A stretch of DNA of 64,000 bases from positions 1,122 through 65,121 of IMG/VR virus record IMGVR_UViG_3300018080_000179, one strand, 5' to 3'. The notes beneath the pieces were generated by a model that worked only from the letters and a program-made list of their open reading frames with translations, did no database searches and was not told the DNA's origin. This document shows, piece after piece, positions 18,268 through 33,439 of this stretch. Made by a program: the position numbers and the translations under genes. Every line of letters begins with the position of its first letter. The first letter of the stretch is position 1. The DNA comes from a virus. Lineage: Duplodnaviria; Caudoviricetes.

Positions 18268-18271
18268 TCAG

Positions 18272-19021: not shown

Positions 19022-19307
19022 GCATGAGACCGCCGAGACGACAATCATTCAGGAAGGCGGCGGCCATACGCAGGTCATAGAGAAGAATGTGACCGACTTC
19101 AACATTCCCCTCGGGAAGGTCGCCCAGGGAAAATGGTTTTACTTCTTCTGCGATCAGCCTTTTCGGATTAAAATAAACAATGGGGCCGACCTGGTCATGG
19201 CGGCTGACAAGGTGAACGAGATGTGGGTGGACTTCACCTCGCTGAAGGTGACCAACCCATCCGGCACGGACGACATGCGACTCACATGGGCTATTGGCGG
19301 TGCATGA
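18939..19307 (+). CDS. small virion structural protein
   Basis: SD AGGAG; beta-rich, FTSLKVTN pattern. Confidence 0.7.
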   Translation: MRFYRKGSITLSEDDATTPKQIRFEDREHETAETTIIQEGGGHTQVIEKNVTDFNIPLGKVAQGKWFYFFCDQPFRIKINNGADLVMAADKVNEMWVDFTSLKVTNPSGTDDMRLTWAIGGA

Positions 19308-19323
19308 TATAGGGGTACTGGTA

Positions 19324-20193
19324 ATGAAGGACATGCGGGAATTCTCTGAACTCCTTGATGAGACTATAGAGAAGGGTCGCGCAGCCGAAGAGCGCGACCG
19401 GCAAAGGATAAGGGACAGGCGCACCGAGCTTCGGAAGGCGCTGTCCGACCATCCACACCATCCGATAACCGTTGGCCCTGATTCGGGTTTTTATTCACCC
19501 TACCGTCACACCTCCTTTGGCTGGATGCCCCACGACCCGGAACACTGGCGGGAGCAGGGCATTGGAAGCAGGAAGACTTCATCCTCGGAAGAGTGCCAGT
19601 TTGTGCATGACGGCTACCGCGAGGTGCGCCAGTACCTTTCCGGCGTCATGAAGTCGGTAATAGCCGAAACGGTTGAGAAGGCCAGGAAGGTGGGCACGGT
19701 ACCGAACGGCACCATCCACGACTACAAGGGCCACAAGTATGAGAAGAAGGGACCGGGCGACTGGCGTCTGGTTCATGAGGGCAAGGCCTCCGATCACCCG
19801 ATTGAGCAGCATCACACCGCCAGAAGGCAGAAGGTGCAGGATACCCTGAAGGACCGCAAGAACGGTCTTGCACAGGAGCCCAGCTTCGATGACCGGGCAA
19901 GGGCGGCCAATGAGAAGGCCCGTGAGATCCAGCAGCGTGAGACTGAGGTTCAGGCGCGTGGACTGGAGGCCCGCGAGGCGGATCTGGAAAGGCGGGAGAA
20001 TGCGCTTGCACAAACTAAGGAAGATGGTTCAGCGGATGCTCCGGGCAGTGATGTCGGCCCCGAAGAAGGGCGCGAGTCTGATGCTGGTACCGGCCAGAAA
20101 AATGAAGGCGGTGGTTCTAAGCCTGAAGATAAGGTTCTGAAACCCGGCTCCGACGACGGCGGGGATGACAAGAAGCCGAAGGAGAAGAAATGA
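19324..20193 (+). CDS. putative head-internal protein
   Basis: IEK|G, LRK|A, VMK|S and VEK|A sites; VPNGTIHDYKGHKYEKKGPGDW module; charged low-complexity tail. Confidence 0.65.
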   Translation: MKDMREFSELLDETIEKGRAAEERDRQRIRDRRTELRKALSDHPHHPITVGPDSGFYSPYRHTSFGWMPHDPEHWREQGIGSRKTSSSEECQFVHDGYREVRQYLSGVMKSVIAETVEKARKVGTVPNGTIHDYKGHKYEKKGPGDWRLVHEGKASDHPIEQHHTARRQKVQDTLKDRKNGLAQEPSFDDRARAANEKAREIQQRETEVQARGLEAREADLERRENALAQTKEDGSADAPGSDVGPEEGRESDAGTGQKNEGGGSKPEDKVLKPGSDDGGDDKKPKEKK

Positions 20194-23100
20194 AGCACGT
20201 GATGGATCTGGCCAAGTCGCGGCCCCACAAGTACATCAAGCGGGTCAGGCGTGGGAACAAGTGGGTTTATACCTATCATGAAGGTGGCCGCAAGAAATCC
20301 TTGTCCGACGAGCATTTCAAAAAGATAAAGAAGCTGGCCGAGATGGGGCATGAGACATCAAAGGCCTTGATGGATGGAATCAAGACCGGGACCGCTCCAA
20401 GCGGTACCACGAGCAATCCAATTAGAAGCAGGAAGCGGTGGGCTTCCAAACTAAGGCGTGAGGGCTGGTTTGGGGCAGTTGTTAAAAACAGTGAGGGCAA
20501 GCATTTCAGGGTTGTTGCCATAGGCAAGCGGCAGAAGGAAGCGATGTCTCCTGTTCATGAGGTCTTCCACGTTGTAAAGGATTCGGCGGAAGGCTTCATA
20601 GTCCGCCAGCGCAATGAAGACCGAATGTTTCTGGCCCATGACAAGAATTATGAAATAGTCTCCACCGGGATCAAGCTGTCCAAGAGGCAGCAGGATGACC
20701 TGAAGAAGCTGCATGAGGCTGGCTGGATTCGCGGTCTGCCCGAGGCGGATTATAATGGAAAGGGATACTATGGGGACGGCGCGGATGCGGTTGTAACCAT
20801 GGATTATGATGCTCCGAAGAATGGCACGCTGTTTCGCATGCGCGATGGCGAGGAAGATGATGACTGGCCTGAGTTTGTAGGTCGCAGGGACGTCGAAAAA
20901 AGAGCAAAGAGATGGCTTCGTGAGAAGGGCTTTGGCAGGAAGGTTGAGGTTTACGCAGAGGACCATGAGAAGGGGATGTTTTCAATAAACATCGTTATCA
21001 AGAAATCGGAGGAGGAAATAATGGGTACCGTTGATGGCGCACTGGACGAGGTGATCAAGGGTCGCGGGCCGGACAGAAAACCCCGCAAGAGAAGGTTCAA
21101 GATCGGCCATCAGGTGAAGGATAGCGGAACATCCCCCCATGGAGCAAAGGGTGTTGGAGTGGTCGTGGGAACCGGACAGTTCAGCCATGACGTACATTTC
21201 CCGGATGAGAACGAAACCCTTGAGTTCCATGACGGTGAATTGAAGGGTTCGGCCAAGGTGCACGACGATAAGAAGGTTGGGGATATCCTGAAGCGTCATG
21301 CCCAGGTGAGGCCGTCGAAATACAAGTCCGTTGATGGTGCTCTCGACGATTTGATGAAGGCTGGAGGCGAAGGCTCAAGAGGCGGAGTGGTAATAGGACA
21401 TTATGAGTCTGGTGCGCCAATGTATCAAAAGGGTTCTGGCGTTCTTGGCGCGACCCGGTCTGGCAAGGAAATAAAGGTTGGTATGAGCCGTCAGCGGGGG
21501 AAGGTGCATAGGGATGGTGGTTCAACAAGTGCCCAGGCAACCGCAGGTTGGACAAAGGAAGACCATCACGACGCTGCTGCTCATTACTGGAAGAAGCATT
21601 TGGAGGCAAAAGATCCTGAAAAAAAACAAAAGTATGCTGTAGATCATAGTCACCATGATGTTCAGGCTATGAATATGGGTGGTGGCAAGCTTCGTGAGCA
21701 TTATGATGACGCAGTAAAAAGAATGCGGAGAGGTGAGCATCCGTTTGCTGATGCTGATGAGAAAAGGTTGCTTGGCAAGTCCGTCGATTCGGCCCTCGAT
21801 GATCTGATAAAGGCCGGACCAACCGGACCCGGCTCCAGGGGTGGCAAGGTTGTGAGAACCAAGACCGGCAAGATCCGGTATGAGAGTCACCAGAAGGTGC
21901 TGAATGCGGCTCACGGCATGGAGGGTTCCCACGGAGCTTATAACCATGCTGCACGCGGTGAAGCCAGGGGGACTTCAAAGGTAACGCCAAACGACAAGAA
22001 GCTGATCGACAAGCTCCATGAGCACGGTGTGGAGGATCATCAGAAGGTGGCCTTTTACGATTCCAAGATGGGCCGCCATGCGATGGATTCCCTTCACAAT
22101 GGTCAGGAGCAGCACGTTGACAGCAGCATAAAGCGGTTCAAGAAGGAATATGCCGACCACGACGAGGAGTGGAAGACCAAGGCAAAGATCAACTGGGACA
22201 AGGCTCACGATACAAAGTCCACCGGGCCGGAGAGGGGGATGATGGATGAGAAGCATTATCCCCACCTGATGGACGACTATGAGCTTAAGGGCCATCCCAG
22301 ATTCGACAAGGAGGATTTCAGCAACCTCCGCAACAAGGGATATTCCCATGATGAGATAAGAAACATTTGGGACAAGGACCGGGAGCGTGGAGCTTCCAAA
22401 CCAGGAGGTGCTTCAGTGAAATCTGTAGACGGCGCATTGGATGATTTAATCAAGGGTGGACCTGGGAGTGGCATAAGGAAGTCCGACGACGAGGGCGGCT
22501 TTCATCCTGAAGAGGCGCGAGAGCCCTCAGAGGCCCAGGAAAAGACACCAGAGCAGGAAGCCGAAGACGAGGTCAAGAACGAAGAAGCCAGAAGCAAGTC
22601 GGTTCTAGGCGACCTTGCAGACGATTTGAGGAAGGGTCGTGGTCCCGACAAGAAACCGAGAAAGAGGCGTGGTGGCATATACAAATACAAGGACGCAAAG
22701 GTAAAGGTGGTGGAGCAGGCTCGTGGCTTTACCGACCCAAAGCAGCGGGAGCAAATGTGGGTTCGCCTGGTCGGCGGCAAACATGAGAACTACGAGCATG
22801 GTGACGAATTCACAGTTCATCCAAAACATTTGGAAGAGACAAGCAAATCCAATAAGGGGGAAGCAATGTTTAGAACCGAGATGCCACAGAATCTTATCAA
22901 GAGTGTTGGCGAAGACACTACAACAGCCGAAACCATAAAGAAGGGCATACCGGGACAGAGCCGTTCCTCCCGCGACCTTCTTTACACGCAGGACGATTTC
23001 AAAAAGGGTTGCAAGGAGAAAATGTATCCTGAAAAGAAAAAGAAGAAGGAAGAGCCGGAGGCTGAGAAATCCCTGAGTGAAGAGGTCGTTGACATATTCA

Positions 23101-23747
23101 AGGACTGTGACGCAGCATACGCGGAAGGCGACCTGCACAAGGCTTACATGGGCTTTGAGAAGCTGGCCGGAAAGCTGGAAGGAAAGGTCGAAGACCCGAA
23201 GGCGGTCGCGGCAGCGGTAGGCAGAAAGAAGTACGGGGACGCTGCATTTCAGGCGGCAGCTGCATCGGGCAGAAAAATGGCCTCCGACACGGGCGAGGAC
23301 AACGATTTACAGAAGGGTGGTCCGGGAAGCGGCAGACATAAGATCGGCCACAAGGTCAAGGTGACTGATTCGCCTCACAACAGGAAGCATGGCAACTGTC
23401 CGCATGTCGGCAAGCAGGGGACGGTGTCTTCTGTGTCGGGTGACGATGTAACGGTTATGATGGATGGCGGAGAAGGCAAAAGGGTGGGGATGGGTACGGA
23501 GCATTCTACGGTGACTGTAAAGCATGGCGATTTGGCAGGTGTGAGCAAGTCCTTTGGCTCCGAGAATCTGAAAAACACCCATGGCGAGCAGTTTCATTCG
23601 GACGCAGACCGCCAGGTGGTCGAGTATCTCACTACAATCGACAAGGTGAGCATCCACGACGAATCCCACAATCAATCGCCGAACAAGGTTGATCCAAACA
23701 GGCCCCTGCACACGCAGGAGCAGACATTCATGCACTACACCTGGTAG
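20190..23747 (+). CDS. 1185-aa modular polyprotein with repeated KSVDGALDDLxK(G/A) linkers; putative protease-processed head cargo
   Basis: Linker repeats at 21003-21062, 21324-21362, 21777-21815, 22419-22457 and 22596-22637, with degenerate copies to 23549; lies between terL and the portal. Confidence 0.8.
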   Translation: MKHVMDLAKSRPHKYIKRVRRGNKWVYTYHEGGRKKSLSDEHFKKIKKLAEMGHETSKALMDGIKTGTAPSGTTSNPIRSRKRWASKLRREGWFGAVVKNSEGKHFRVVAIGKRQKEAMSPVHEVFHVVKDSAEGFIVRQRNEDRMFLAHDKNYEIVSTGIKLSKRQQDDLKKLHEAGWIRGLPEADYNGKGYYGDGADAVVTMDYDAPKNGTLFRMRDGEEDDDWPEFVGRRDVEKRAKRWLREKGFGRKVEVYAEDHEKGMFSINIVIKKSEEEIMGTVDGALDEVIKGRGPDRKPRKRRFKIGHQVKDSGTSPHGAKGVGVVVGTGQFSHDVHFPDENETLEFHDGELKGSAKVHDDKKVGDILKRHAQVRPSKYKSVDGALDDLMKAGGEGSRGGVVIGHYESGAPMYQKGSGVLGATRSGKEIKVGMSRQRGKVHRDGGSTSAQATAGWTKEDHHDAAAHYWKKHLEAKDPEKKQKYAVDHSHHDVQAMNMGGGKLREHYDDAVKRMRRGEHPFADADEKRLLGKSVDSALDDLIKAGPTGPGSRGGKVVRTKTGKIRYESHQKVLNAAHGMEGSHGAYNHAARGEARGTSKVTPNDKKLIDKLHEHGVEDHQKVAFYDSKMGRHAMDSLHNGQEQHVDSSIKRFKKEYADHDEEWKTKAKINWDKAHDTKSTGPERGMMDEKHYPHLMDDYELKGHPRFDKEDFSNLRNKGYSHDEIRNIWDKDRERGASKPGGASVKSVDGALDDLIKGGPGSGIRKSDDEGGFHPEEAREPSEAQEKTPEQEAEDEVKNEEARSKSVLGDLADDLRKGRGPDKKPRKRRGGIYKYKDAKVKVVEQARGFTDPKQREQMWVRLVGGKHENYEHGDEFTVHPKHLEETSKSNKGEAMFRTEMPQNLIKSVGEDTTTAETIKKGIPGQSRSSRDLLYTQDDFKKGCKEKMYPEKKKKKEEPEAEKSLSEEVVDIFKDCDAAYAEGDLHKAYMGFEKLAGKLEGKVEDPKAVAAAVGRKKYGDAAFQAAAASGRKMASDTGEDNDLQKGGPGSGRHKIGHKVKVTDSPHNRKHGNCPHVGKQGTVSSVSGDDVTVMMDGGEGKRVGMGTEHSTVTVKHGDLAGVSKSFGSENLKNTHGEQFHSDADRQVVEYLTTIDKVSIHDESHNQSPNKVDPNRPLHTQEQTFMHYTW

Positions 23748-23755
23748 GAGGTATC

Positions 23756-24331
23756 ATGTCGGACGTGCTTCAGGATCTGGCCGACCAGATCACCAAGTCC
23801 GGGTCGCAGCAGCCGGTAACCCAAAGGCAGCAGCCCAGGCCACAGCCGCAGACGAACCTTGGCACCTTTGTAAAGGCGGCCGGTCCCGGTGGAGTCATTT
23901 TTGATTTCAGCCAGGCGAGAGGCAATCCACTGGCTGACAGGTTTGCGGCCCTTCTGAATTACCATTCGGATCCACAGCAGGTCCAGATTGCAAAAGACCA
24001 GCACGCTGCCTATCAGAAGGCGCTGGGGAACTTTGTGGACCTTGGCGAGTCCAGATTCAATCAGAGCAGTGGCCAGGGCAGCTTTGAAGGCGTCCACAAG
24101 GCGTGGAATCAGCAGCTTTCGGGCTCGACCGATGCAACGATTAAGAAGCTCTATGAAGAGGGCAAGCTCGTCGTCGACGATCCAACCTCCATAGAGAAGG
24201 GTGGAGCCGGGATGCCCCAGTTTGGAGACGCCAAGATCAATATTGGTAATGAAACGGTTCATGCCACATCTGAAACGGACCAGGCCGTTATGGAAATGAT
24301 GAAGGGTGGCATGCTAGACGAAGAGGAATGA
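23756..24331 (+). CDS. putative head-internal/core protein
   Basis: SD AGGAGG; DLADQITK|S, FVK|A and IEK|G sites. Confidence 0.7.
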   Translation: MSDVLQDLADQITKSGSQQPVTQRQQPRPQPQTNLGTFVKAAGPGGVIFDFSQARGNPLADRFAALLNYHSDPQQVQIAKDQHAAYQKALGNFVDLGESRFNQSSGQGSFEGVHKAWNQQLSGSTDATIKKLYEEGKLVVDDPTSIEKGGAGMPQFGDAKINIGNETVHATSETDQAVMEMMKGGMLDEEE

Positions 24332-24332
24332 T

Positions 24333-26093
24333 ATGGGCGCAGTACGGGATTTCCTATCCAAATCTGTAGAGTTCATCGGCGAGGAGATAGTGCCTATCGC
24401 CGGGGACTTGAGAAAGGCTGGGCTTCTGGGTTCCAATGGTACCTATGAGCCCAAGGCTTCACTGATAGATCCGTTCAGTTACAACCTCACGGTTTTCGGC
24501 TACAAGGAGAAGTATTCATTTATTGACTATGCCAAGGCACGGCAGATCAGCTACTCGGACCCGGTCCTTTCGGCAATCATCCAGACCAGAACCAACCAGG
24601 TGGGCGCGTTTGCGGTACCACAGGACGACCGCTACAAGGTCGGCTTCAAGATATCCCAGCGGGACAAGAAGAAGAAAATGAACGGGGCGGCGAAGAAGAA
24701 GGCCGAGGAGCTTGCAAAATTCATTATGAACTGCGGCTTCCCGGAGCAGATGGAAGAGACGCCGGACACGAAGAAGCGCGATAATTTCGAGATGTTTCTC
24801 AGGAAGATCACACGCGACTCCCTGACATTCGATCAGGTGAATTTTGAAGTGGTCCCAAGGGCCAATGGAATGCCCGCACAGTTCATAGCGGTGGACGCGG
24901 GCACCATGAGGATACTTCCGGACAGGCGGGATGTGGCGGCCACCTATGGCGGAATGCATGGAAACAACTACGGGTTCTCTCCGCAGAATGCGAATGCCCT
25001 GATGCCCGCGATGATGCTCCAGCCCCTCAACCCGGATCAGACGAATGTGAACCAGACACGGGTTCCACGGTACACCCAGCTTATAAACGGCACGCCAAGG
25101 GCCACGTTTGACGAATGGGAGATGGCGTTTGGAGTGAGAAACCCGCGAACGGACATTCTGTCCAACGGGTACGGCTTCTCCGAGATAGAGATGCTTCTCA
25201 CGGCCATTACCGCACACCTGAATGCCGACACCTACAACCGCAAGTTTTTCTCACAGGGAAGCTCGCAGAAGGGGATTCTGGCATTTGAAGGAAACGTGCC
25301 TCCGGATCAGCTTGAGGCATTCAGACGCCAGTACCATCAGCAGGTCACGGGTGTTCAAAACGCATGGAAGACCCCGATCATAGCCACGGGCAACAAGGAC
25401 ACCAAGCTGAACTGGCAGTCCATGCACTCCACGAACAAGGAGATGGAGTGGGGGAAGTACACCGAGTATCTGGTCAAAACGATATGCGGCGTCTATCAGA
25501 TCGACCCCATAGAGATAGGCTTCGACATAGCCCGCAATTCATCGGGGCAGGGCGGCTCCAGCGGCCTGGGCGGAATGGGTCAGCAGGTCGAGCGTTTGAA
25601 GTTTTCGAAGGACAAGGGTCTTGACCCGCTTCTTCGCTTCATCGCTAACATGATAAACGACTACATTATCTGGCGGCTCGCGCCGGATTTCGAGTTTGAG
25701 TTCGTCGGCCTTAACGCATCCAGTGAAAAGGAACAGGTGGAACTGGACAAGGAGAAGGTGGCCACATTCATGACGGTGGACGAGCTTCGTGCCGAGCATG
25801 ACCTTCCTGCCGCAAAGAAGCCCGATGACGTTGAGTCGGTCGGCGACATGATTCTGAGCCCCACATACGTTCAGGCCTTCCAGGCGCTTGCAATGGGTGG
25901 CGGTGAAGAGGAGGGTGGAATGCCCGGAGAAGACGGCGAGCAGGGGCCGGGTGCTCCCATGGGTGAGGAGGACGAGCCTTCCTATGAGAACATGAGCGAC
26001 AAGGAGCTTGAGGCCGAACTGGCAAAGCTTCAGGGCACCGCAACCGGCAAGTCGATGGAAGCCAAATTCAAGACACTGGAGCTTATACTTTAG
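24333..26093 (+). CDS. portal protein (SPO1/Twort-like)
   Basis: AIIQTRTNQV, RDSLTFDQVNFE, VRNPRTD...YGFSEIE, QLEAFRR, CGVYQIDPIEIGF, SKDKGLDPLL. Confidence 0.95.
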   Translation: MGAVRDFLSKSVEFIGEEIVPIAGDLRKAGLLGSNGTYEPKASLIDPFSYNLTVFGYKEKYSFIDYAKARQISYSDPVLSAIIQTRTNQVGAFAVPQDDRYKVGFKISQRDKKKKMNGAAKKKAEELAKFIMNCGFPEQMEETPDTKKRDNFEMFLRKITRDSLTFDQVNFEVVPRANGMPAQFIAVDAGTMRILPDRRDVAATYGGMHGNNYGFSPQNANALMPAMMLQPLNPDQTNVNQTRVPRYTQLINGTPRATFDEWEMAFGVRNPRTDILSNGYGFSEIEMLLTAITAHLNADTYNRKFFSQGSSQKGILAFEGNVPPDQLEAFRRQYHQQVTGVQNAWKTPIIATGNKDTKLNWQSMHSTNKEMEWGKYTEYLVKTICGVYQIDPIEIGFDIARNSSGQGGSSGLGGMGQQVERLKFSKDKGLDPLLRFIANMINDYIIWRLAPDFEFEFVGLNASSEKEQVELDKEKVATFMTVDELRAEHDLPAAKKPDDVESVGDMILSPTYVQAFQALAMGGGEEEGGMPGEDGEQGPGAPMGEEDEPSYENMSDKELEAELAKLQGTATGKSMEAKFKTLELIL

Positions 26094-26094
26094 A

Positions 26095-26316
26095 ATGGAC
26101 GTTGTTATCAAATCGACGCAGGAGGAGTTTGAGAGCAAGCGGCCGGAACTGATCCACAAGATCGCCGGAGGCATGTTTGACATAAGCCTTGAGAAGTCGA
26201 TGAAGAAGCGACCGGCCATCCTGAAGATACAGGACGAGATGCTGGACTATTGGGACCGGGAGTTTCAGAAGATGATCCGGGGACTGAAGAAGGAAATCGA
26301 AGAGGTGTTGGGATGA
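26095..26316 (+). CDS. small hypothetical head-module protein
   Basis: ATG immediately after the portal stop; VIK|S and LEK|S sites; ATGA overlap with the next gene. Confidence 0.6.
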   Translation: MDVVIKSTQEEFESKRPELIHKIAGGMFDISLEKSMKKRPAILKIQDEMLDYWDREFQKMIRGLKKEIEEVLG

Positions 26317-28841
26317 GAGTTGCGGTACCGCAATCGGAGAAGGCAGTCGCCTCAGTGGGTGTGTTCGACGGCGACAAGCTTCTGATGGGCCGGAGGAGGG
26401 ATTCCAACAAGTACACGCTCCCCGGCGGACACTTCGAACCAGGTGAATACGCCCTTGAGGCAGGAATCAGGGAGCTTCAGGAAGAGGCTGGTATAGAGGT
26501 TGCCTCGCTTATCCCCCTCGGAATGAAACCCGTCAGGACGCCCGAGGGGGTTCTGGACATTCATGCCTTTGAATATCACTGCGACAAGACCCCCACCGTG
26601 AAATACGACCCCGACGAGGAAGTGAAGAAGTGGGAGTGGATAGACGTTTCAAACGGACTGCCGGAGGATGTTTTGAACAATCTTCATTCCAAAAAGAACG
26701 TGGTGCTGCAGCTTCTGGGACTCCAGAAATCCTTTGGGCTCTACATCACCGAGCCGGAATACTTCATAACCGACATTCTCAAGGCCCGTCCCCACAAGTA
26801 TATGCGGAAGTACAAGAAGGGCGACAAGTGGATCTATATCTACCATCAGGGTGACGAGCCCGGAAAGCGCCTCACCCCTGCACAGGTGGAGACCTTCCAG
26901 AAGTTGAAGGAAACGGGCCACGAGTCCTCCAAGCGCCTTCTTGACGGGGCTGAAGAGCACAAGGCTGAAAACATAAGGCGGCTGGCTGAGCTTCATGAGA
27001 CAGGGCATCCGGCGGCCACCGAATGGCTGAGAAGACATGCCCTTCTCGATATTGTTGAGCAGGGGCAGCTTGAACACGTAATAGACCCGGAGCGGGCCAA
27101 CGATCCGTTTCTCAGGGATTTGACCGATGACCAGAAGGCACGGGTGACCCATGAGATCGAGGTGGCCCTTCGGGACAGCATATTCGGGTATCTGGACGGC
27201 CACCGGTCCACACCCTTCTATACAAACCTTCAGCGGGACGGTGTGAACATCGCCAGCATAATGGAGGAGGTGGAGGTTGAGGATTCCCTGTCTGATATCA
27301 TATCCGCGCTGGACGAGGCTTTGAATCAGGTGGATGCAGCCCACCGTGGACTAAGCCCGCAAAACGCCAGAGCCCGTGATGCCGGGGGGTATGGAAACCT
27401 TGGCTTCAACACGGCCATGAATCGCCTCGTGGGCGCGTCTGCGCTCCCGGAGGAGGCGGAAGCCCTCCTTACCCGAACAGAGGCCACCAGAGGCCGGATT
27501 TCCATCGACACAGCCAAATTAAAGCGGGCCAAGCAGGAGCAGGAGCGCAGGCAGCGGGAGGAGGCTGAAAGGCTCCGCAGGGAGCATGGCGAGATAGTCG
27601 AGAAGCATGGTGAGTCGGCCAGGAAGATGATGTCCTATTACGGGGCCAGCCTGTCGGAGGCGGAGCAGGTAAAGCTGATGAAGGGCATCGACAAGTTTTT
27701 CGGCAAGGACTTCAAGTTTGATTCAATGGTGGAGGCCTTTCAGGGACACCCCGATGTTGAGATCAGGATAGAGCGGTCCATGATGGACGGCCTGATCGGG
27801 TATGGGGCCGGAGCCGGACAGAGAAGCATCAGCCTTCGGTTCACCTTCAAGGAGCGGTCCTCCGGGCGGAAGATAACGGCTGCCACAAGGCACATGAGCA
27901 AGTCGTCAAACGGGGCCATAGTGTGGCACAACGAGGTTTTGAACAGGGCCAAAAACAACGACCTTGCCAAATACCCCAAAATGGCCACAGGGCTTTATGG
28001 TGGCGTGGAGCGGTTCCTCAAGCAGGTAACCGCCAACTATTCACCAGCGGCCAAGAAGGACACCCTGATAGAAATAGGCGGGTGCGCCAACAGCGGCTTT
28101 GGAAACGGCTACAAGGGTGCCCTGGTCTGGACCAAGCACTTCTTCGACTTTCCTCCTGCAAATAAAGACCGGTATCTTGGCAGTTGGAAGGACACCTGGA
28201 AGCGAAGCATCGACAAATATGCCAGGGCCCTCGGGACACCGGCATCAGAAGTTGCTGAATTAAAAAGGAAAATAGACTCGGCAGAATATCCATATCAGTT
28301 CACCAAGACCGGTTTTGTTCTTACAAGGGAACAGGCAGAAAAGGTTTTGAGGGCTGATCGCAAAAATCTTGACTTCGACTTCAACCAGCTTCTAAAGAAG
28401 AGGTCCAAGGGCGGCACCGCCACTCCGTATATTGACATTGGTGAATTGATAATGATTCACAGCAAGACGTCGTGGGGGGATGCCAAAAACTACATAAACA
28501 GGACCACAGGGCGTGCGGGGCACTTGAACGAACAGCGTACAAAGATGTACAACAGGCAGCAGCAGGTTGCGGCGGAGAAAAGGTTCCTGACGGGAACGGG
28601 AACGTCACGGCCAAGAACCCCCACCGCCACAACAAGAACCTCCACTGGAAACAGGGGAGCGGACGCAATGCGTGCCTGGGCACCCGGTGGGAGCCGCCGA
28701 AGGATAGCCATAACGGAACCCCGGCTGGCTGAAATAAGAACCTGGACTTCAAACGAGATTCGGGATTTTGTACGAAGGGCTCCGATCACGGATGCCGCAC
28801 GGGCACGGATCAGGGCGATATTGGGAGGCAGGAATGCTTGA
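26313..28841 (+). CDS. multidomain head-associated protein: Nudix hydrolase + HKY module + possible GNAT-like domain
   Basis: Complete Nudix box GGHFEPGEYALEAGIRELQEEAGI; LQK|S...ILK|A linker then RPHKY module; GYKGALVWTKHFFDF near the C-terminus. Confidence 0.8.
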   Translation: MRVAVPQSEKAVASVGVFDGDKLLMGRRRDSNKYTLPGGHFEPGEYALEAGIRELQEEAGIEVASLIPLGMKPVRTPEGVLDIHAFEYHCDKTPTVKYDPDEEVKKWEWIDVSNGLPEDVLNNLHSKKNVVLQLLGLQKSFGLYITEPEYFITDILKARPHKYMRKYKKGDKWIYIYHQGDEPGKRLTPAQVETFQKLKETGHESSKRLLDGAEEHKAENIRRLAELHETGHPAATEWLRRHALLDIVEQGQLEHVIDPERANDPFLRDLTDDQKARVTHEIEVALRDSIFGYLDGHRSTPFYTNLQRDGVNIASIMEEVEVEDSLSDIISALDEALNQVDAAHRGLSPQNARARDAGGYGNLGFNTAMNRLVGASALPEEAEALLTRTEATRGRISIDTAKLKRAKQEQERRQREEAERLRREHGEIVEKHGESARKMMSYYGASLSEAEQVKLMKGIDKFFGKDFKFDSMVEAFQGHPDVEIRIERSMMDGLIGYGAGAGQRSISLRFTFKERSSGRKITAATRHMSKSSNGAIVWHNEVLNRAKNNDLAKYPKMATGLYGGVERFLKQVTANYSPAAKKDTLIEIGGCANSGFGNGYKGALVWTKHFFDFPPANKDRYLGSWKDTWKRSIDKYARALGTPASEVAELKRKIDSAEYPYQFTKTGFVLTREQAEKVLRADRKNLDFDFNQLLKKRSKGGTATPYIDIGELIMIHSKTSWGDAKNYINRTTGRAGHLNEQRTKMYNRQQQVAAEKRFLTGTGTSRPRTPTATTRTSTGNRGADAMRAWAPGGSRRRIAITEPRLAEIRTWTSNEIRDFVRRAPITDAARARIRAILGGRNA
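26319..26334. promoter_or_regulatory. 16-bp palindrome (copy 3, one terminal mismatch)
   Basis: GTTGCGGTACCGCAAT, just after the start codon of the Nudix gene. Confidence 0.45.
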
Positions 28842-29971: not shown

Positions 29972-32101
29972 ATGCGTGGACACAAATACATCAAGCGAAC
30001 GGGTGGGCCTGGCAATTACAAGTATTGGTACAAACTGCCGGACGGCTCCATGTCTGCAGGGTCGGAGGCGGATCAGAAGCGTGGAAAGGTGGAGCATGTA
30101 AAGCGTCTGCTTGCGGGCAAGCGGGATGGTGTTCACAACATGACCCATGCTGAAATAGCGCAGCAAACCGGTCACCCAAGGCAGAGGGTCACGAGCGCTG
30201 CCTCCAATATGCAGACCCGTGGGGGCCATGACTTTGACTCCCATCACAAGCTGGAGGCGACACACGATGATGTCGATTCCGGAACCTACATAAGAAAAAT
30301 CACAACCAAGCATGGTCCTGCAGCGGCAGACCATGGAACGGTTGCTGAATCCAGAAGGGCTAGAGACAGGGCACGAAGCGCCCCTGCTGAAGCGGCGGCT
30401 CGTGGCCGCAGGTCGGCAGCAGGAGAAACTCTGACTCCATCTGTAAAGGAGGAGTTGAGAACAGCCCTTGGTGGGATAACTGAAGAGCAGTTGCTGGATG
30501 AAATACGAAGGGTCCGGGAAAGGGGTGGCTACAGTCTTAGAGAGGCCATCCCTGTTATCAGAAGAAATGCTGGTGGCATACAGGCCAGGCGGAATCGTGA
30601 GTCCAGGGCCGCAGCACGAAGGGCTCCTGCTGAAGCAGCGGCCACACCCAGAACCCCACAGGTTGCAGAAGGTGCTGCCGGTGCGACTCCCTTGGGAATG
30701 GCAAGGATATCCCCTGAAGAGGCGAGGCGTGAGGCACAGCAGGCCGGAAGCGCCAGAGAAACAAAGGCACAGAAACAGGCTCGGCTGATAGCCGAACTGA
30801 AGGAAAGCGGAATCGACCTTTCTGATTCTCCAGAGGGTCCGGCAGCGGTTCGTGAGGCGGCTGAACGTGTAGGCACGACTCCAGCCCCGGCAGCGGCTCC
30901 CCCAGCGGAAGAGGGTGCGGCGGCCCGTGATCTTTCCGAAGCCGATCCCGCGCTTGCAGAAGCGGAGACAGCGGTTCAGGCCGCCGTTGATGCACAGCGC
31001 AATGGAGAGAACCCTTACCTGAAAAGGTCGAAGGAAATATACGAGCGGATCAAGGGTGAACTGAAGCCGGAACGCGCCAAGGCAATCAAGCACATGTTGG
31101 CAGCTTATGAGACCAGGTTGCGCGGGGGTGCCATAAATGAGGCGGGCTGGAAGGCCCAGTATAATGCGATAAGAACGGAGATGGGCGGAACAAGCAGTGG
31201 CCTTCCTCCATGGTCTGGTGCAAAGAAGCATTTTGAATCTGGTACCTTCCACACCATGGATGAGGTGATAAACAACCCACCGATCAATCTTGAAGTGGAG
31301 AGAATGAAACGCGGCTATGCTGCGAAGCAGTTTCACAGACTAAAGCCATTCTTGAAGGACGCGTGGGCGCAGGCAAATCCCAGTGCCCCTCCGCCCATGC
31401 CCACCTTCGGCGATCTGAAAAGCTGGAGCGAGGTTCCAGGTGGCAAGACGCCATACGCACAGTCGGTAAACCCAAGGGGCCGCACAGCCCTTCCAGACGA
31501 GGTACACAAGGCTGTAGTCAAGGGTGCGGACGGCAAACCGAAACTTCCTCCACCCTGGATGCCGATCCACCTGATGCCAGCGTGGAACTATGTGGTGGCC
31601 AAGACAGGCGGGGCCGGTTCTGCTTATGGCGGACAGCGTCCACAGGTCGATCCTTCGGGCAAGCTGTCCACAACGGCACAGGCGAGATACCAGGAAGGGA
31701 TCGCCCTTTCGACCCTGAGAAAATATGTGGTAATGCGGGGAGGCCCGGATCAGCTTATTGACATCCCGTCTTCGAAGCTCGCGGGTTCGCAACTGTCACA
31801 CGCACAGATTTTCAAGGCGGACAACCTGTCGGATGCTCAATTGAAGAACATCCTGAAGACCAAGGTCATCGACCCTGTTTCCTTCATTGGATTTCTCAAG
31901 AAGGAGTTGAAGATCAAGAAGTCATTTTCCCTGGTCGTGAGCAAGTCCGAGACCTATACACCGGGGGAGACTTTGGGTTATAATGGGGACATCAGGAAGA
32001 GCTCTCCAACCCAGCCCGGTATCGTTATTGATCTGAAGAAAGCTGAAAAGATAAGAAAAATCAAAGGAATACTCCATGATCGTAAAGTGTCCCAACTGTA
32101 G
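29972..32101 (+). CDS. large Ala/Arg-rich putative head-internal protein with an N-terminal HKY module
   Basis: MRGHKYIKRTGGPGNYKYWY; C-terminal IKK|S, VSK|S, IRK|S and LKK|A cluster. Confidence 0.75.
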   Translation: MRGHKYIKRTGGPGNYKYWYKLPDGSMSAGSEADQKRGKVEHVKRLLAGKRDGVHNMTHAEIAQQTGHPRQRVTSAASNMQTRGGHDFDSHHKLEATHDDVDSGTYIRKITTKHGPAAADHGTVAESRRARDRARSAPAEAAARGRRSAAGETLTPSVKEELRTALGGITEEQLLDEIRRVRERGGYSLREAIPVIRRNAGGIQARRNRESRAAARRAPAEAAATPRTPQVAEGAAGATPLGMARISPEEARREAQQAGSARETKAQKQARLIAELKESGIDLSDSPEGPAAVREAAERVGTTPAPAAAPPAEEGAAARDLSEADPALAEAETAVQAAVDAQRNGENPYLKRSKEIYERIKGELKPERAKAIKHMLAAYETRLRGGAINEAGWKAQYNAIRTEMGGTSSGLPPWSGAKKHFESGTFHTMDEVINNPPINLEVERMKRGYAAKQFHRLKPFLKDAWAQANPSAPPPMPTFGDLKSWSEVPGGKTPYAQSVNPRGRTALPDEVHKAVVKGADGKPKLPPPWMPIHLMPAWNYVVAKTGGAGSAYGGQRPQVDPSGKLSTTAQARYQEGIALSTLRKYVVMRGGPDQLIDIPSSKLAGSQLSHAQIFKADNLSDAQLKNILKTKVIDPVSFIGFLKKELKIKKSFSLVVSKSETYTPGETLGYNGDIRKSSPTQPGIVIDLKKAEKIRKIKGILHDRKVSQL

Positions 32102-32382: not shown

Positions 32383-33195
32383 ATGAACGATTTTTTCATT
32401 TCCAAGAGTGATTTTCGTATATGGCTGCCGGATGTGGAATTTGACTTTGAGAAGGCAGACAAGGACGAAGGCCACGACTCCCGAAAAATCATAGGCACCA
32501 TGAACACCTCCACCAAGGATCGCCAGGCAGAGAATGTCATGGCAAAGGGGCTCGACTTCAACCCCTTCCTTCAGCATGGACACTTCAATGACAATCATGA
32601 CCAGTCCACATCGGCGGTCGTTGGGTACCCCGAACGGGTATACTATTCGGATCAGATCCAAACCAAAAAGGGTGTGACCGAGGGCTGGCTTACCGAGGGA
32701 TGGATCGTCAAGGGGACCAAAAGGGCTGACGGCATCTGGGAACTGGCGAAGGCGCTGGCAAAAACCCCGGATCGCAGGTTGGGCTTCTCCATCGAGGGCA
32801 AGGTTCTCAGAAGGTCCAACAAGGTGATCGAGAAGGCGCTGATCAAAAACGTGGCCATCACCAACTGCCCGGTAAACACCGACTGCACCTGGGACGTTTT
32901 CAAGAAGAGTTTTTACAGCGAGGAGATGGCCATCAAGTCGCTGTCTGCTGGCTACGCAACATCCCCCGCCACACAATCCGGCGGCGGAGCCCTTCGGACA
33001 GAAGACCTTGACCAGGAAGACGACAAGAAGCCTGGAAGGAAGGGCAAGGGTCTGAAGATCATACTGCGCTCAATGGGTCTTGACCCTGACAATATTCAAA
33101 AGGCCTACGATTGGGTGAAGGAAAGTCGTCCCGACTTCACTGATGAAGCGGCGGCGGAAGTGGTTAGGTGGATCATTTCAAGCAAAGGAGAATAA
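32383..33195 (+). CDS. prohead (capsid maturation) protease
   Basis: DRQAENV...GLDF...GHFNDNH (His), LGFSIEG (Ser), NVAITNCPVN; SPO1/Twort-like. Confidence 0.93.
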   Translation: MNDFFISKSDFRIWLPDVEFDFEKADKDEGHDSRKIIGTMNTSTKDRQAENVMAKGLDFNPFLQHGHFNDNHDQSTSAVVGYPERVYYSDQIQTKKGVTEGWLTEGWIVKGTKRADGIWELAKALAKTPDRRLGFSIEGKVLRRSNKVIEKALIKNVAITNCPVNTDCTWDVFKKSFYSEEMAIKSLSAGYATSPATQSGGGALRTEDLDQEDDKKPGRKGKGLKIILRSMGLDPDNIQKAYDWVKESRPDFTDEAAAEVVRWIISSKGE

Positions 33196-33198
33196 GCG

Positions 33199-33426
33199 AT
33201 GTCAGAAGCACAGGAAATCGGACGCCTGCCCGCAGAGGAAGTCGGACAGGACCACATCCTTGATGACCCTACAAAGGGTTTTCAGGCTGTGTTGACGAAA
33301 CAGGACGAGATCATTGATCTTCTCAAGGCTTTGACTGCCAAGCTGGACGCAGACGGCGGTGTGAGTGACACGGACTTCGCGTCCCTTCTCACCGACGACC
33401 TGAACAAACTTGGCTTTAGTTTATAA
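33199..33426 (+). CDS. small acidic head-associated protein
   Basis: LTAKLDADGGVSDTDF motif typical of capsid-adjacent small proteins; SD AAGGAG. Confidence 0.7.
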   Translation: MSEAQEIGRLPAEEVGQDHILDDPTKGFQAVLTKQDEIIDLLKALTAKLDADGGVSDTDFASLLTDDLNKLGFSL

Positions 33427-33439
33427 AGGGAGGTTTCTC

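What the first reader, a model, noticed from the sequence alone, without database searches (positions are those of the whole stretch)
20190..23747. 1185-aa beads-on-a-string polyprotein with repeated double-cleavage linkers
Seen: linkers KSEEEIMGTVDGALDEVIKG (21003), KSVDGALDDLMKA (21324), KSVDSALDDLIKA (21777), KSVDGALDDLIKG (22419) and KSVLGDLADDLRKG (22596), then degenerate KSVGED..TIKKG (22899), KSLSEE..DLHKA (23067), NDLQKG (23313) and VSKS (23547). The linker codons differ synonymously (AAG TCC GTT GAT GGT GCT CTC vs AAA TCT GTA GAC GGC GCA TTG), so selection is on the peptide. The segments between linkers are largely unrelated: an HKY module, two or three KOW/SH3-like barrels (KIGHQVK, KIGHKVKV), His-rich domains and a small helical domain. 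They start with stereotyped new N-termini: GRGPD(R/K)KPRKRR twice, GGPGSG twice, and G(E/P)GSRGG twice. Inference: one gene yields about 8-10 small basic internal proteins, a virus-style polyprotein. I do not know this architecture as a described phage family, but I cannot search the literature.
Basis: partly seen in the sequence, partly recalled or inferred. Interest (0 to 1): 0.9.

Follow-up and report, generated by a model that had tools for sequence, protein, structure and literature searches.

The report
Phage head-cargo polyprotein with cut-site linkers
An uncultured phage encodes, just before its portal gene, one long protein made of about ten unrelated small modules joined by a short peptide that looks like the cutting site of the phage's own head-maturation protease, so one gene probably loads many small proteins into the virus head, although no cut has been measured.

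Summary
ORF 20190..23747 encodes 1185 aa. Linker peptides share 11 of 13 residues but only 24-30 of 39 bases.

The cleavage reading is well supported by sequence, not by experiment. The linker end [DE]-[LIVM]-x-K|[GAS] also occurs at the capsid protein N-terminus. There it aligns with the K|S position at which a deposited staphylococcal myophage capsid chain begins. It also occurs in the protease tail, scaffold, portal N-terminus and the next gene.

In the window the motif is enriched only in the head genes. These hold 12 observed against 1.85 expected, besides 8 against 0.91 in the ORF itself.

Relatives with 51-63% identical portals carry different module sets at the same position. Free-standing genes start exactly at the predicted P1' residue. 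Two metagenomic proteins fuse the protease itself to such modules.

The second cut (K|S) is not supported as a protease site. Not all products are basic.

This scan has noted similar polyproteins with other linkers on other DNA. I found no paper describing it. Verdict: new variant of a known kind, namely protease-processed head cargo or polyvalent proteins.

The parts
20190..23747 (+). Cargo polyprotein ORF, 1185 aa (P0001)
   Evidence: No Pfam or PHROG family. No full-length homologue.
20190..20216 (+). N-terminal 9-residue tag M-K-H-V-M-D-L-A-K|S, a propeptide-like copy of the linker end
   Evidence: The same kind of tag follows Met in P0002, P0005, P0007, P0039, P0141 and others.
20217..21005 (+). 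Module S1 (res 10-272): HKY module (about res 10-66) plus a second domain
   Evidence: The HKY part also occurs in the 863-aa protein of the window (42% identity) and in many hits. Three of those hits carry Pfam LPD1. Res 190-302 matches P0038, P0077, P0080, P0100 and P0147.
21006..21059 (+). Linker 1 (res 273-290), ...T-V-D-G-A-L-D-E-V-I-K|G
   Evidence: Predicted helix 274-289 in a low-confidence model. SD-like GGAGG plus in-frame ATG at codon 278.
21060..21326 (+). Module S2 (res 291-379), starts GRGPDRKPRKRR
21327..21359 (+). Linker 2 (res 380-390), S-V-D-G-A-L-D-D-L-M-K|A
21360..21779 (+). Module S3 (res 391-530), GEGSRGG-type His-rich module
   Evidence: The module recurs, often several times per protein, in P0005, P0011, P0016, P0022, P0028, L004, L013 and L021.
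21780..21812 (+). Linker 3 (res 531-541), S-V-D-S-A-L-D-D-L-I-K|A
   Evidence: Helix 532-541.
21813..22421 (+). Module S4 (res 542-744), composite. It has a GPGSRGG start, a helical core (about 568-662) and a 699-744 piece.
   Evidence: P0003 is 53% identical over 539-668. Free-standing P0013 and P0017 cover 568-662. P0018 covers 699-755. This is the only confident part of the single-sequence model (res 600-670, pLDDT 85-93).
22422..22454 (+). Linker 4 (res 745-755), S-V-D-G-A-L-D-D-L-I-K|G
   Evidence: Helix 747-754. SD-like site plus in-frame GTG at codon 743.
22455..22598 (+). Module S5 (res 756-803), GGPGSG start, acidic (net -8)
22599..22634 (+). Linker 5 (res 804-815), S-V-L-G-D-L-A-D-D-L-R-K|G
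   Evidence: Helix 803-814.
22635..22901 (+). Module S6 (res 816-904), starts GRGPDKKPRKRR
22902..23141 (+). Region S7 (res 905-984) with degenerate sites K918|G, K939|G and K984|A. This is the start of the conserved 'core' chain.
   Evidence: Colinear with P0002 154-263. Similar blocks occur in P0007 and P0010.
23142..23315 (+). Module S8 (res 985-1042), small helical A-Y-M-G-F-E-K-L module. It is the most widespread module.
   Evidence: Most of the 150 listed hits cover it. Free-standing genes begin M-[AGST]-Y-[MVI]-G-F, that is at the predicted P1'.
23316..23549 (+). Module S9 (res 1043-1120), GGPGSGRHKIGHKVKV start. Possibly a small beta barrel, not established.
   Evidence: Sub-threshold KOW hits only. 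The module is absent from the otherwise colinear P0002, a cassette indel at linker boundaries.
23550..23744 (+). Module S10 (res 1121-1185), S-F-G-S-E-N-L-K-N-T-H-G-E module
   Evidence: Recurs in P0002, P0006-P0008, P0010, P0011, P0018, L007, L008, L016, L017 and L021.
23756..24331 (+). 191-aa protein. It is the constant last module of the chain in relatives, but a separate ORF here with its own tag M-S-D-V-L-Q-D-L-A-D-Q-I-T-K|S.
   Evidence: tblastn matches in 18 of 20 portal-related loci. It is fused to the chain in L010, L013, L014 and L016-L021. K40 is invariant in 14 of 14 aligned sequences. The model is helical and non-compact, pLDDT 62.9.
24333..26093 (+). Portal protein. Its N-terminus carries [DE]-L-x-K-A-G at residue 28.
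   Evidence: PF04860. The motif is present in the window and all 19 relatives examined.
26250..28841 (+). 863-aa NUDIX protein with T-D-I-L-K|A-R-P-H-K-Y (site plus HKY module)
29972..32101 (+). 709-aa protein starting with an HKY-like module; 3 strict motif sites
32383..33195 (+). Prohead (head-maturation) protease, the presumed cutting enzyme
   Evidence: phrog_1028 E 7e-52. His (H-F-N-D-N-H) and Ser (F-S-I-E-G) columns are conserved across 6 sequences. The C-terminal E-E-M-A-I-K|S-L-S-A-G-Y resembles the capsid-protein site.
33410..34246 (+). Scaffold-like protein with a complete linker-like element K-S-I-S-N-S-M-I-E-L-V-K-K|G before its C-terminal tail
   Evidence: phrog_15087 weak match. 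The element is conserved in 5 of 5 sequences.
34259..35725 (+). Major capsid protein with V-S-E-L-N-K|A-L-T-A-G-Y at residue 30
   Evidence: phrog_752. Conserved in 5 of 5 sequences. It aligns with E-D-V-V-K|S-F-Q-T-G-Y of PDB 5lii_P, and the 439-residue chain 9row_B starts right after that K.
19294..20193 (+). 299-aa upstream protein. In relatives the same family carries C-terminal effector domains behind a K|A site.
   Evidence: tblastn. RelA_SpoT in L008 and S-AdoMet lyase in L007 and L019. Sites K296|A and K348|A lie just before the domains.

Best explanation
P0001 is a head-cargo polyprotein of an uncultured myophage whose capsid module is distantly SPO1-like.

Shown by sequence: it is translated as one 1185-residue chain made of about ten unrelated modules. 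Each module is preceded by an 11-13-residue peptide (S-x-D-x-A-L-D-D-L-I-K) that looks amphipathic and ends in the site [DE]-[LIVM]-x-K|[GAS].

Inferred: the chain is co-assembled into the prohead. Loading may go through the tag peptides and/or the N-terminal HKY module that it shares with two other head-block proteins. The prohead serine protease (32383) then cuts after the Lys of each tag. In the same step it would trim the capsid protein (after K30), its own tail, the scaffold tail, the portal N-terminus (after K28) and the 191-aa protein (after K40). This would release roughly 10-11 fragments of 4-30 kDa inside the head.

Weaker inference: the basic fragments stay with the DNA and enter the host with it. 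Some acidic pieces may be expelled like scaffold fragments.

In evolutionary terms the tag is the N-terminal propeptide of free-standing cargo genes. Polyproteins arise and dissolve by gene fusion and fission at the tags, which explains the cassette-like shuffling among relatives.
For: 1. The motif is repeated and selected as a peptide. There are 5 canonical plus 5 further sites in the ORF. Cores share 11 of 13 aa but 24-30 of 39 nt. The strict motif count is 8 against 0.91 expected, with 0 of 1000 shuffles reaching it.

2. The motif is the same as at the maturation-type sites of the head proteins.
   - Capsid protein: V-S-E-L-N-K|A-L-T-A-G-Y, conserved in 5 of 5 sequences.
   - This aligns with E-D-V-V-K|S-F-Q-T-G-Y of the full-length 463-aa chain 5lii_P. 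The 439-aa chain 9row_B begins 3 residues before T-G-Y, that is right after that K. SPO1 Gp6.1 (9vel_C) has V-D-A-L-N-K|A-L-E-A-G-H.
   - Protease tail: [DE]-x-x-A-x-K|S-L-x-A in 4 of 4.
   - Scaffold: K-S-x-x-S-x-[AS]-[ML]-x-[DEQ]-[LM]-V-[KR]-K|G-type element in 5 of 5.
   - Portal: [DE]-L-x-K-A-G in 20 of 20.
   - 191-aa protein: K40 invariant in 14 of 14.

3. Enrichment is confined to head genes.
   - 9 head-block genes other than P0001: 12 sites against 1.85 expected, 0 of 1000 shuffles.
   - 21 downstream genes, including tail genes: 1 against 2.89.
   - 17 upstream genes: 3 against 1.76.

4. Module boundaries coincide with P1'.
   - Free-standing genes of the helical module begin M-[AGST]-Y-[MVI]-G-F in 6 of 7 small proteins printed whose match starts at residue 2; P0032 starts M-Y-M-G-F.
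   - GGPGSG starts are preceded by K in 17 of 17 cases and GRGxDxKPRK in 5 of 5.
   - P0002 is colinear with P0001 but lacks S9 exactly between two sites.

5. The same tag follows the start Met in many family members: 24 sites within the first 16 residues.

6. There is a direct link to the protease. P0003 and P0037 are phrog_1028 protease domains (res 1-165) followed by such modules. In the contig of P0003 the capsid protein again carries L-L-E-E-I-T-K|A near its N-terminus.

7. Content varies at a fixed position. In 15 portal-related loci with upstream sequence, the ORFs before the portal are motif-rich chains of 424-746 aa. Only P0001 regions 337-495, 935-1034 and 1112-1171 recur, in 7 loci. 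Regions 1-336, 496-934 and 1035-1111 recur in none.

8. Recognisable counter-defence-type enzymes sit behind the same site in the neighbouring gene family of relatives: RelA_SpoT after K296|A and S-AdoMet lyase after K348|A. This favours delivery into the host.

9. HKY-bearing hits P0004, P0009 and P0012 carry Pfam LPD1, and two of them NUDIX. These are polyvalent-protein domains.
Against: No cut has been observed. There is no virion proteome, no cultured relative and no expression data for this phage or any relative. tblastn against 50,697 phage records found nothing for P0001, the 191-aa protein, P0005 or P0087.

The inference that 9row_B is the mature capsid protein rests on chain length and alignment alone. 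I found no paper stating the site.

A conserved [DE]-L-x-K-[AG] could be a structural or binding motif in some of these proteins. The portal is the clearest case, because 20 of 20 conservation is equally expected for a structural motif.

The scaffold element is shifted by one residue relative to the linker (…L-V-K-K|G), so its register is ambiguous.

The AlphaFold single-sequence model is poor (mean pLDDT 42.9). It cannot show that the modules fold independently or that the linkers are exposed. Linker 2 was not predicted helical.

None of the modules has a known function, so 'cargo' is inferred from context.

Two of the five canonical linkers have an SD-like sequence and an in-frame start codon just before the tag, so some internal initiation is not excluded.
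Confidence: 0.65

Rival explanations
1. Uncleaved polyvalent protein. The chain is packaged, and perhaps injected, at full length. The repeated peptide would then be a helical spacer or a repeated docking peptide for scaffold, capsid interior or DNA, and not a cut site.
For: Iyer et al. 2017 (PMC5512222, passages read) note that phage N4 virion RNA polymerase is packaged unprocessed. No cleavage data exist here. The tag looks amphipathic and is predicted helical in 4 of 5 canonical linkers of a low-confidence model. The portal copy of the motif is invariant, as a binding motif would be.
Against: The tag end matches the capsid-protein N-terminal site, which aligns with the start of a deposited mature-length chain. 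Free-standing genes start at P1'. The tag occurs directly after Met as a short leader. The scaffold carries the element just before its C-terminal tail. The Gly-rich P1'-P5' residues (GGPGSG, GGEGSRGG, GRGPD) are typical of exposed, flexible sites.
Confidence: 0.15
2. Assembly core rather than cargo. The chain, especially its conserved C-terminal part plus the 191-aa protein, is an internal scaffold or core component. It would be cut up by the protease and mostly expelled before or during DNA packaging, as the T4 core proteins are (recalled), so that few or no fragments are delivered to the host.
For: The 191-aa family occupies a fixed position directly before the portal in 18 of 20 loci. Its model is an extended, non-compact helical protein with a disordered Q/P-rich stretch (pLDDT 62.9, pTM 0.28). 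No fold match was found. Several segments are acidic, like scaffold fragments.
Against: Module content before the conserved core is highly variable, which is unexpected for an assembly core. Six segments are basic. A separate scaffold-like gene exists. The neighbouring family carries enzymes that are useful only in a host cell.
Confidence: 0.12
3. The modules are made separately by internal translation starts at the module boundaries, so the long ORF is an operon-like fusion and no protease is needed.
For: An SD-like GGAGG lies 5-8 nt before an in-frame ATG at codon 278. AGGAG/GGAGG lies 6-8 nt before an in-frame GTG at codon 743. Both are just upstream of a tag. In L004 the equivalent modules are separate, overlapping ORFs.
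Against: Only 2 of 5 canonical linkers, and none of the degenerate ones, have such a start. The purine-rich words are also forced by Glu/Gly codons. Products started there would still carry the tag and need it removed. There are no stop codons or frame changes between modules.
Confidence: 0.04
4. Assembly or gene-calling artefact: a chimeric contig or a read-through of several genes.
For: The record is a metagenomic viral contig estimated at about 60% complete.
Against: The frame is open for 3558 nt with even composition. Independent contigs from other samples hold analogous fused chains at the same position. The Atlas holds the identical protein sequence, possibly from the same sample.
Confidence: 0.02

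Closest known systems
Polyvalent proteins of phages and conjugative elements (Iyer, Burroughs, Anand, de Souza, Aravind 2017, PMC5512222; passages read)
   Same: Both are large multidomain proteins encoded among virion genes, with many unrelated domains, rapidly shuffled architectures and presumed delivery with the DNA. The authors draw an analogy to viral polyproteins and note assemblin-like peptidases at the C-termini of some members, likely processing proteins during virion assembly. Hits sharing the HKY module of P0001 carry their LPD1 domain and NUDIX.
   Different: P0001 itself matches none of the Pfam LPD or other catalogued domains. The paper's main text never uses the word 'linker' (0 occurrences). 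In the passages I read, release is ascribed to embedded peptidase domains. Here the defining feature is a repeated 11-13-residue tag matching the site of a separately encoded prohead protease. The paper's supplementary files were not seen.
Phage T4 internal proteins IPI-III and Alt: capsid-targeting sequence removed by prohead protease gp21 (recalled; the Mullaney and Black 1996 title was seen in a reference list)
   Same: A short N-terminal leader ends in the protease site. The same protease trims the capsid protein. The products stay in the head and enter the host. The tags after Met in this family look like such leaders.
   Different: T4 uses one leader per separate gene, a gp21-type protease and L/I-x-E sites (recalled). 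Here the tags are internal and repeated in one chain, the protease is of the phrog_1028 (HK97-like Ser/His) type and the site is Lys-specific.
Ejection and inner-body proteins of giant phages phiKZ, 201phi2-1 and SPN3US, processed by the prohead protease (abstract starts seen for PMC7411985, PMC5694885 and PMC10052503; details recalled)
   Same: Many head-internal proteins are cut by the maturation protease at a shared short motif, some at several sites, and are ejected into the host.
   Different: Those are mostly separate paralogous genes with propeptides in 200+ kb phages and use Glu-type sites (recalled). Shuffled unrelated cassettes joined by one conserved tag were not reported in what I read.
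SPO1-like (Herelleviridae) head module: capsid protein Gp6.1 or phage 812 MCP with its prohead protease
   Same: The capsid protein matches 9vel_C (E 1e-76) and 5lii_P (E 1e-30), with the same N-terminal ...K|[AS]-x-x-[AT]-G-[YH] element. MCP identity is about 33-38% to Bacillus SPO1-like phages.
   Different: No cultured phage in the 50,697-record collection has a relative of P0001, of the 191-aa protein or of the GSRGG module. The cargo chain is not a known feature of that family.
Earlier reports of this scan on other DNA: protease-headed or T4-type cargo polyproteins with G-F-A-S-R-G, Q-G-V-A-E-G, L-x-E|S, L-G-S-R or E-S-K-K-x-E linkers
   Same: The architecture and inferred logic are the same: unrelated modules, one repeated short linker resembling the protease site, and variable content.
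   Different: The linker here is different and longer (an 11-13-residue element that looks like an amphipathic helix and ends in K|G/A/S). The phage lineage differs too. In this case the linker is also found in scaffold, portal, capsid protein and protease. Those reports are unchecked AI notes, not evidence.

Membership tests
Polyvalent proteins (Iyer et al. 2017) | 2-15 unrelated domains in one polypeptide of a phage or conjugative element | tested here: met
   About 10 segments without mutual similarity beyond their starts. Each matches a different set of partial homologues.
Polyvalent proteins (Iyer et al. 2017) | Encoded among virion or packaging (late) genes | tested here: met
   The ORF lies directly upstream of the 191-aa gene and portal, within the block up to the protease, scaffold and capsid protein. 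I did not test the 482-aa ORF at 16819 against any family.
Polyvalent proteins (Iyer et al. 2017) | Contains catalogued domains (LPD families, MuF, enzymatic effectors) | tested here: not met
   0 Pfam families for P0001 at E 0.01, and none significant for any of 10 segments at E 5. The only indirect link is that HKY-sharing hits carry LPD1 and NUDIX.
Polyvalent proteins (Iyer et al. 2017) | Rapidly varying domain architecture among relatives | tested here: met
T4-type internal proteins with capsid-targeting sequence | Short N-terminal leader ending in the prohead-protease site | tested here: inconclusive
   A 9-residue M-K-H-V-M-D-L-A-K|S leader is present by sequence, and similar leaders occur in 24 family N-termini. 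Targeting and removal were not tested.
T4-type internal proteins with capsid-targeting sequence | gp21-family protease and L/I-x-E cleavage motif | tested here: not met
   The protease is phrog_1028 and the site ends in Lys.
T4-type internal proteins with capsid-targeting sequence | Packaged in the head and injected | not testable with these tools
   No virion or infection data. No cultured relative.
Substrates of the HK97-like prohead protease of SPO1-like heads | Site identical in type to the capsid-protein maturation site | tested here: met
   D-D-L-I-K|G compared with S-E-L-N-K|A (window MCP), E-D-V-V-K|S (5lii_P; 9row_B starts after it) and D-A-L-N-K|A (9vel_C).
Substrates of the HK97-like prohead protease of SPO1-like heads | Actual cleavage by the protease | not testable with these tools
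   Needs co-expression or virion N-terminomics.
   KOW2_Spt5 18.5 bits against cut-off 28.9, and KOW 14.6 against 22.3, for S9 only. The AlphaFold single-sequence model gives coil at pLDDT below 50.

The most novel reading that the evidence does not exclude
The 11-13-residue peptide S-x-D-x-A-L-D-D-L-I-K|G would be a portable 'address-and-cut' tag of a large, wholly uncultured group of phages. The same element marks scaffold, portal, capsid protein, protease and every cargo module. Any ORF placed behind it would be loaded into the prohead and released by the maturation protease. Genes with this tag would fuse and split freely, so that polyproteins, protease-headed chains and free small genes are interchangeable states of one plug-and-play capsid-delivery system for counter-defence proteins.
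Probability: 0.35. Interest if true: 0.8.

Novelty: new variant of a known kind. Interest (0 to 1): 0.66.

Why it matters
If the tags are cut, one gene delivers about ten different small proteins with the phage DNA, and the set is reshuffled between close relatives. That would be a compact, evolvable way of carrying an arsenal into the host, with all ten modules still of unknown function.

It would also give a simple rule for reading head-packaged proteins out of metagenomic phage genomes of this lineage: [DE]-[LIVM]-x-K|[GAS] after an amphipathic helix. The tag would be a natural candidate for loading foreign proteins into capsids.

There is a practical caveat for anyone testing it. The cut is after Lys, so ordinary tryptic proteomics cannot distinguish it from sample digestion.

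Tried and rejected
Homologue and family searches that found little:
- Full-length homologues: none at near length, none in phage records, none in viral contigs by peptide patterns. The exhaustive phmmer gave only partial, module-wise hits.
- Known families for P0001 or its ten segments: none significant in Pfam or PHROGs.
- ESM Atlas look-alikes for residues 10-272 and 905-1185: no usable hit.

Structure work that led nowhere:
- The full-length single-sequence AlphaFold model was too poor for fold claims. A test of MAFFT on P0001 plus 46 short hits showed that a full-length alignment of mosaic proteins is unreliable, so I did not fold the whole protein with an alignment.
- The 191-aa protein model found no fold match in PDB or BFVD. 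The model is of moderate to low confidence, so this says little.

Context and names:
- P0010 gave no viral-contig relatives.
- Names and accessions of ten hits: all are metagenomic and either unnamed, 'hypothetical' or, in one case, carry an implausible automatic name.

Literature:
- Searches for the capsid-protein cleavage site of SPO1-like phages, with passages of PMC3201976 and PMC12282133, gave nothing usable.
- PMC12991175 concerns T4 gp21 and CBASS and is not relevant here.
- Motif words searched in full text matched 0 papers.

Rejected ideas:
- The linker as a DNA-level recombination joint: linker DNA is only 62-79% identical.
- K|S as a second protease site of the same type: it has no P4/P3 determinants and is kept after Met.

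Not used: complex prediction (an enzyme with a short substrate is not a suitable job) and the look-up of sequencing runs/lay_reads (RNA or DNA reads cannot show proteolysis).

The 'MuF-like' look of the 316-aa protein (C-P-W-C ... H-P-F-C-R-C) is my recollection only. Pfam gave no Mu F match.

Supplementary files of papers were closed and not consulted. The supplementary architecture lists of Iyer et al. might contain related proteins.

Full report
WHAT IS THERE

The window is 64,000 of the 65,121 bases of a linear IMG/VR viral record estimated at about 60% complete. Nearly all long ORFs lie on the + strand.

ORF 20190..23747 (+) encodes 1185 aa, referred to here as P0001. It lies at the upstream end of a head-gene block:
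- a 299-aa protein at 19294
- P0001
- a 191-aa protein at 23756
- the portal at 24333 (PF04860)
- an 863-aa NUDIX protein at 26250
- a 316-aa and a 709-aa protein
- the head-maturation protease at 32383 (phrog_1028, E 7e-52)
- a scaffold-like protein at 33410
- the major capsid protein at 34259 (phrog_752)

The capsid protein is 33-38% identical to those of SPO1-like Bacillus phages. It matches SPO1 Gp6.1 (9vel_C, E 1e-76) and a staphylococcal myophage capsid protein (5lii_P, E 1e-30) among solved structures.

CHECK OF THE OBSERVATION

A six-frame regex scan finds the five canonical linkers only in this ORF, at the coordinates given. The degenerate sites and the stereotyped module starts are also present.

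The three 13-residue cores share 11 of 13 residues but only 24-30 of 39 bases, with 5-9 synonymous codon differences per pair. The DNA copies are 67-79% identical.

The strict motif [DE][LIVM]xK[GAS] occurs 8 times against 0.91 expected, and 0 of 1000 shuffles reach that.

The ten segments between sites are unrelated to each other apart from their first residues. Their net charges run from +18 to -8, so 'basic' holds for six of ten.

No Pfam or PHROG family matches the protein or any segment. The 'KOW/SH3' idea rests on sub-threshold hits for one segment only.

IS THE LINKER A PROTEASE SITE?

Six independent lines point that way.

1. The capsid protein carries V-S-E-L-N-K|A-L-T-A-G-Y at residue 30, conserved in the four relatives that reach it.
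   - In the PDB alignment this stretch lies on E-D-V-V-K-S-F-Q-T-G-Y of the 463-residue chain 5lii_P.
   - A second deposited chain with the same aligned sequence, 9row_B, has 439 residues and begins three residues before T-G-Y, that is right after that Lys.
   - SPO1 Gp6.1 reads V-D-A-L-N-K-A-L-E-A-G-H.
   - I take 9row_B to be the mature form. That is an inference from length and alignment. I found no paper stating the site.

2. The same ending occurs in four further head proteins.
   - Protease tail: E-E-M-A-I-K|S-L-S-A-G-Y, in 4 of 4 sequences.
   - Scaffold-like protein: a full linker-like element, K-S-I-S-N-S-M-I-E-L-V-K-K|G, precedes the C-terminal tail in 5 of 5 sequences.
   - Portal: [DE]-L-x-K-A-G at about residue 28 in 20 of 20 sequences.
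   - 191-aa protein: F-x-K|[SA]-x-G-P-G-G, with K40 invariant in 14 of 14, plus a second E-M-M-K|G near the end.

3. Within the window the strict motif is enriched only in the head block.

| Gene group | Observed | Expected | Shuffles reaching observed |
|---|---|---|---|
| 9 head genes other than P0001 | 12 | 1.85 | 0 of 1000 |
| 21 downstream genes, including tail genes | 1 | 2.89 | 943 of 1000 |
| 17 upstream genes | 3 | 1.76 | 261 of 1000 |

4. Module boundaries sit at P1'.
   - Small free-standing proteins of the helical module start M-[AGST]-Y-[MVI]-G-F, against ...D-L-H-K|A-Y-M-G-F in P0001.
   - GGPGSG starts are preceded by K in 17 of 17 cases and GRGxDxKPRK in 5 of 5.
   - P0002 is colinear with P0001 880-1042 and 1121-1185 but lacks segment S9, which is bounded by two sites.

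5. The tag follows the initiator Met as a 6-16-residue leader in many family members, with 24 such sites. Examples are P0001 itself (M-K-H-V-M-D-L-A-K|S) and the 191-aa protein (M-S-D-V-L-Q-D-L-A-D-Q-I-T-K|S).

6. Two metagenomic proteins, P0003 and P0037, are phrog_1028 protease domains (residues 1-165) continued by such modules. In the contig holding P0003 the capsid protein again has L-L-E-E-I-T-K|A near its N-terminus.

The window's protease keeps the conserved His (H-F-N-D-N-H) and Ser (F-S-I-E-G) columns.

RELATIVES AND VARIABILITY

No full-length homologue exists in any collection searched. The exhaustive search found 217 proteins at E <= 1e-3 (10 at <= 1e-10, 1 at <= 1e-30). In the 150 listed, the best-scoring stretch covers only part of the query. 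The ten looked up are metagenomic and unnamed or automatically named.

The loose motif occurs 287 times in the 150 listed hits against 110 +/- 11 in shuffles. 94 of the 150 have at least one copy and 39 have at least three.

Twenty viral contigs carry a portal 51-63% identical to the window's.
- In the 15 with usable upstream sequence, the ORFs before the portal are motif-rich chains of 424-746 aa, sometimes split into two or three ORFs.
- Only three regions of P0001 recur there, in 7 loci: 337-495, 935-1034 and 1112-1171. Regions 1-336, 496-934 and 1035-1111 recur in none.
- The 191-aa family matches in 18 of 20 loci. The other two hold fewer than 270 nt upstream of the portal.
- It is the fused last module in most relatives and a separate ORF in the window, L004, L007 and L008.

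The conserved core is therefore an N-terminal block, the N-T-H-G-E module and the 191-aa protein. Residues 1-890 of P0001 are an accessory extension.

The upstream 299-aa family carries recognisable enzymes behind the same kind of site in relatives: RelA_SpoT after K296|A in L008 and S-AdoMet lyase after K348|A in L007. Such enzymes act in a host cell. This is the best hint, indirect as it is, that the block holds delivered cargo.

THE SECOND CUT

K-S lies 8-16 residues (mode 10-11) upstream of 88 of 266 canonical sites. About 24 would be expected at random positions, and the maximum over 200 trials was 38. It is therefore a real part of the tag.

However, the residues before it are not conserved. 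The free N-terminal versions also keep it directly after Met (M-K-S-L-N-D-L-I-K|A, M-K-S-L-Q-D-A-F-N-D-L-I-K|A).

I read K-S as the start of the tag. It would be left over from, or equivalent to, the N-terminus of a free-standing gene, and not a second cut site. If so, each tag stays on the C-terminus of the preceding module unless trimmed by something else.

STRUCTURE

The single-sequence AlphaFold model of the whole protein is poor (mean pLDDT 42.9, pTM 0.32). Only residues 600-670 are confident. Linkers 1, 3, 4 and 5 and the N-terminal tag come out as short isolated helices, while linker 2 does not. This does not test independence of the modules.

The 191-aa protein, folded with 14 sequences, is helical and non-compact. 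It has a disordered stretch around the invariant K40 (pLDDT 62.9, pTM 0.28) and no fold match.

HOW IT MOST LIKELY WORKS

See Best explanation for the full statement. The repeated tag, its identity with head-protein sites, the variable cassettes and the protease fusions are shown by sequence. Loading into the prohead, cutting by the 32383 protease, retention and ejection are inferred.

Rivals kept:
- an uncleaved polyvalent protein with docking or spacer repeats
- an assembly core that is degraded and expelled
- internal initiation: an SD-like word plus an in-frame start lies before 2 of 5 canonical tags
- artefact

COMPARISON WITH WHAT IS KNOWN

The closest concept is the polyvalent protein of Iyer et al. 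2017. I read passages only. They describe shuffled multidomain proteins among virion genes, an analogy to viral polyproteins, embedded peptidases, and assemblin-like peptidases at some C-termini. The word 'linker' does not occur in the paper's main text.

Mechanistically the closest are the T4 internal proteins with their capsid-targeting leader (recalled) and the multiply processed ejection proteins of giant phages (abstract starts seen).

My full-text searches found no description of tag-punctuated cargo polyproteins in phages. The motif words matched 0 papers. Subscription journals and supplements are not covered by these searches.

This scan has already reported analogous polyproteins with other linkers on other DNA. 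Those notes are unchecked and I did not test them. They mean the theme is not unique to this window, while this Lys-type tag and its presence in scaffold, portal, capsid protein and protease are specific to this case.

VERDICT

It is a new variant of a known kind, with interest 0.66. The main weakness is the complete lack of experimental or cultured-phage data.

Noticed in passing
window 5972-6421 (+): A 149-aa ORF aligns with the C-terminal half of the prohead protease, but reads A-V-G-G where the six proteases have S-I-E-G, and it lacks the H-F-N-D-N-H region. It is a possible inactive paralogue, as another first-reader note (e1-6235301) suggested.
   Followed up: partly
L018 about 17206-17996 and L021 about 17840-18546: In two relatives the protease gene matches the window's protease in two pieces (res 1-168/190 and 157/161-270) separated by about 700-790 nt. 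The interruption could be an inserted element, intron or intein, or a rearrangement. It was not examined.
   Followed up: no
L008:5714-7432, L007:5349-6932, L019:1547-2881: The family of the window's 299-aa protein (19294) carries different C-terminal enzymes in relatives: RelA_SpoT (E 3e-18) or S-adenosylmethionine lyase (E 9e-10 and 9e-7). In two of the three, a K|A site lies just before the domain. The window's copy has only an acidic, low-complexity tail.
   Followed up: partly
window 26250-28841 and 29972-32101: The HKY module (…[RG]-[PG]-H-K-Y-[IM]-[KR]-[KR]…W/Y-x-Y) also occurs inside the NUDIX protein, right after T-D-I-L-K|A, and at the N-terminus of the 709-aa protein. In hits it is almost always preceded by F-x-I-x-D-L-[IL]-K|[AG]. 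It may be a head-anchoring module. Its fold and function are unknown.
   Followed up: partly
window 32383-33195 and 34259-35725: After their K|[AS] sites, the protease tail and the capsid-protein N-terminus share a 25-residue similar stretch ([AS]-L-[ST]-A-G-Y-A-[ST]-x-P-A-[ST]-Q-S-x-G-G-A-L-R). This explains the phrog_1028 hit on the capsid protein.
   Followed up: partly
window 29018-29968: The 316-aa protein is conserved next to the NUDIX protein in relatives (44-53% identity). It has a C-P-W-C ... H-P-F-C-R-C pattern that I recall from MuF/SPP1 gp7-type head proteins, but Pfam gave no such match, only a sub-threshold ToxA_N line.
   Followed up: no
L023:4848-6080 and 6083-6928: In the contig with the protease-cargo fusion P0003, the next gene starts with an HKY-like K-Y-A-K-R-T-G-T-P-G-N-Y-V-Y-W. 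The following 281-aa protein begins with a K-K|A-L-A-I-G-A-G element resembling the capsid-protein N-terminus.
   Followed up: no
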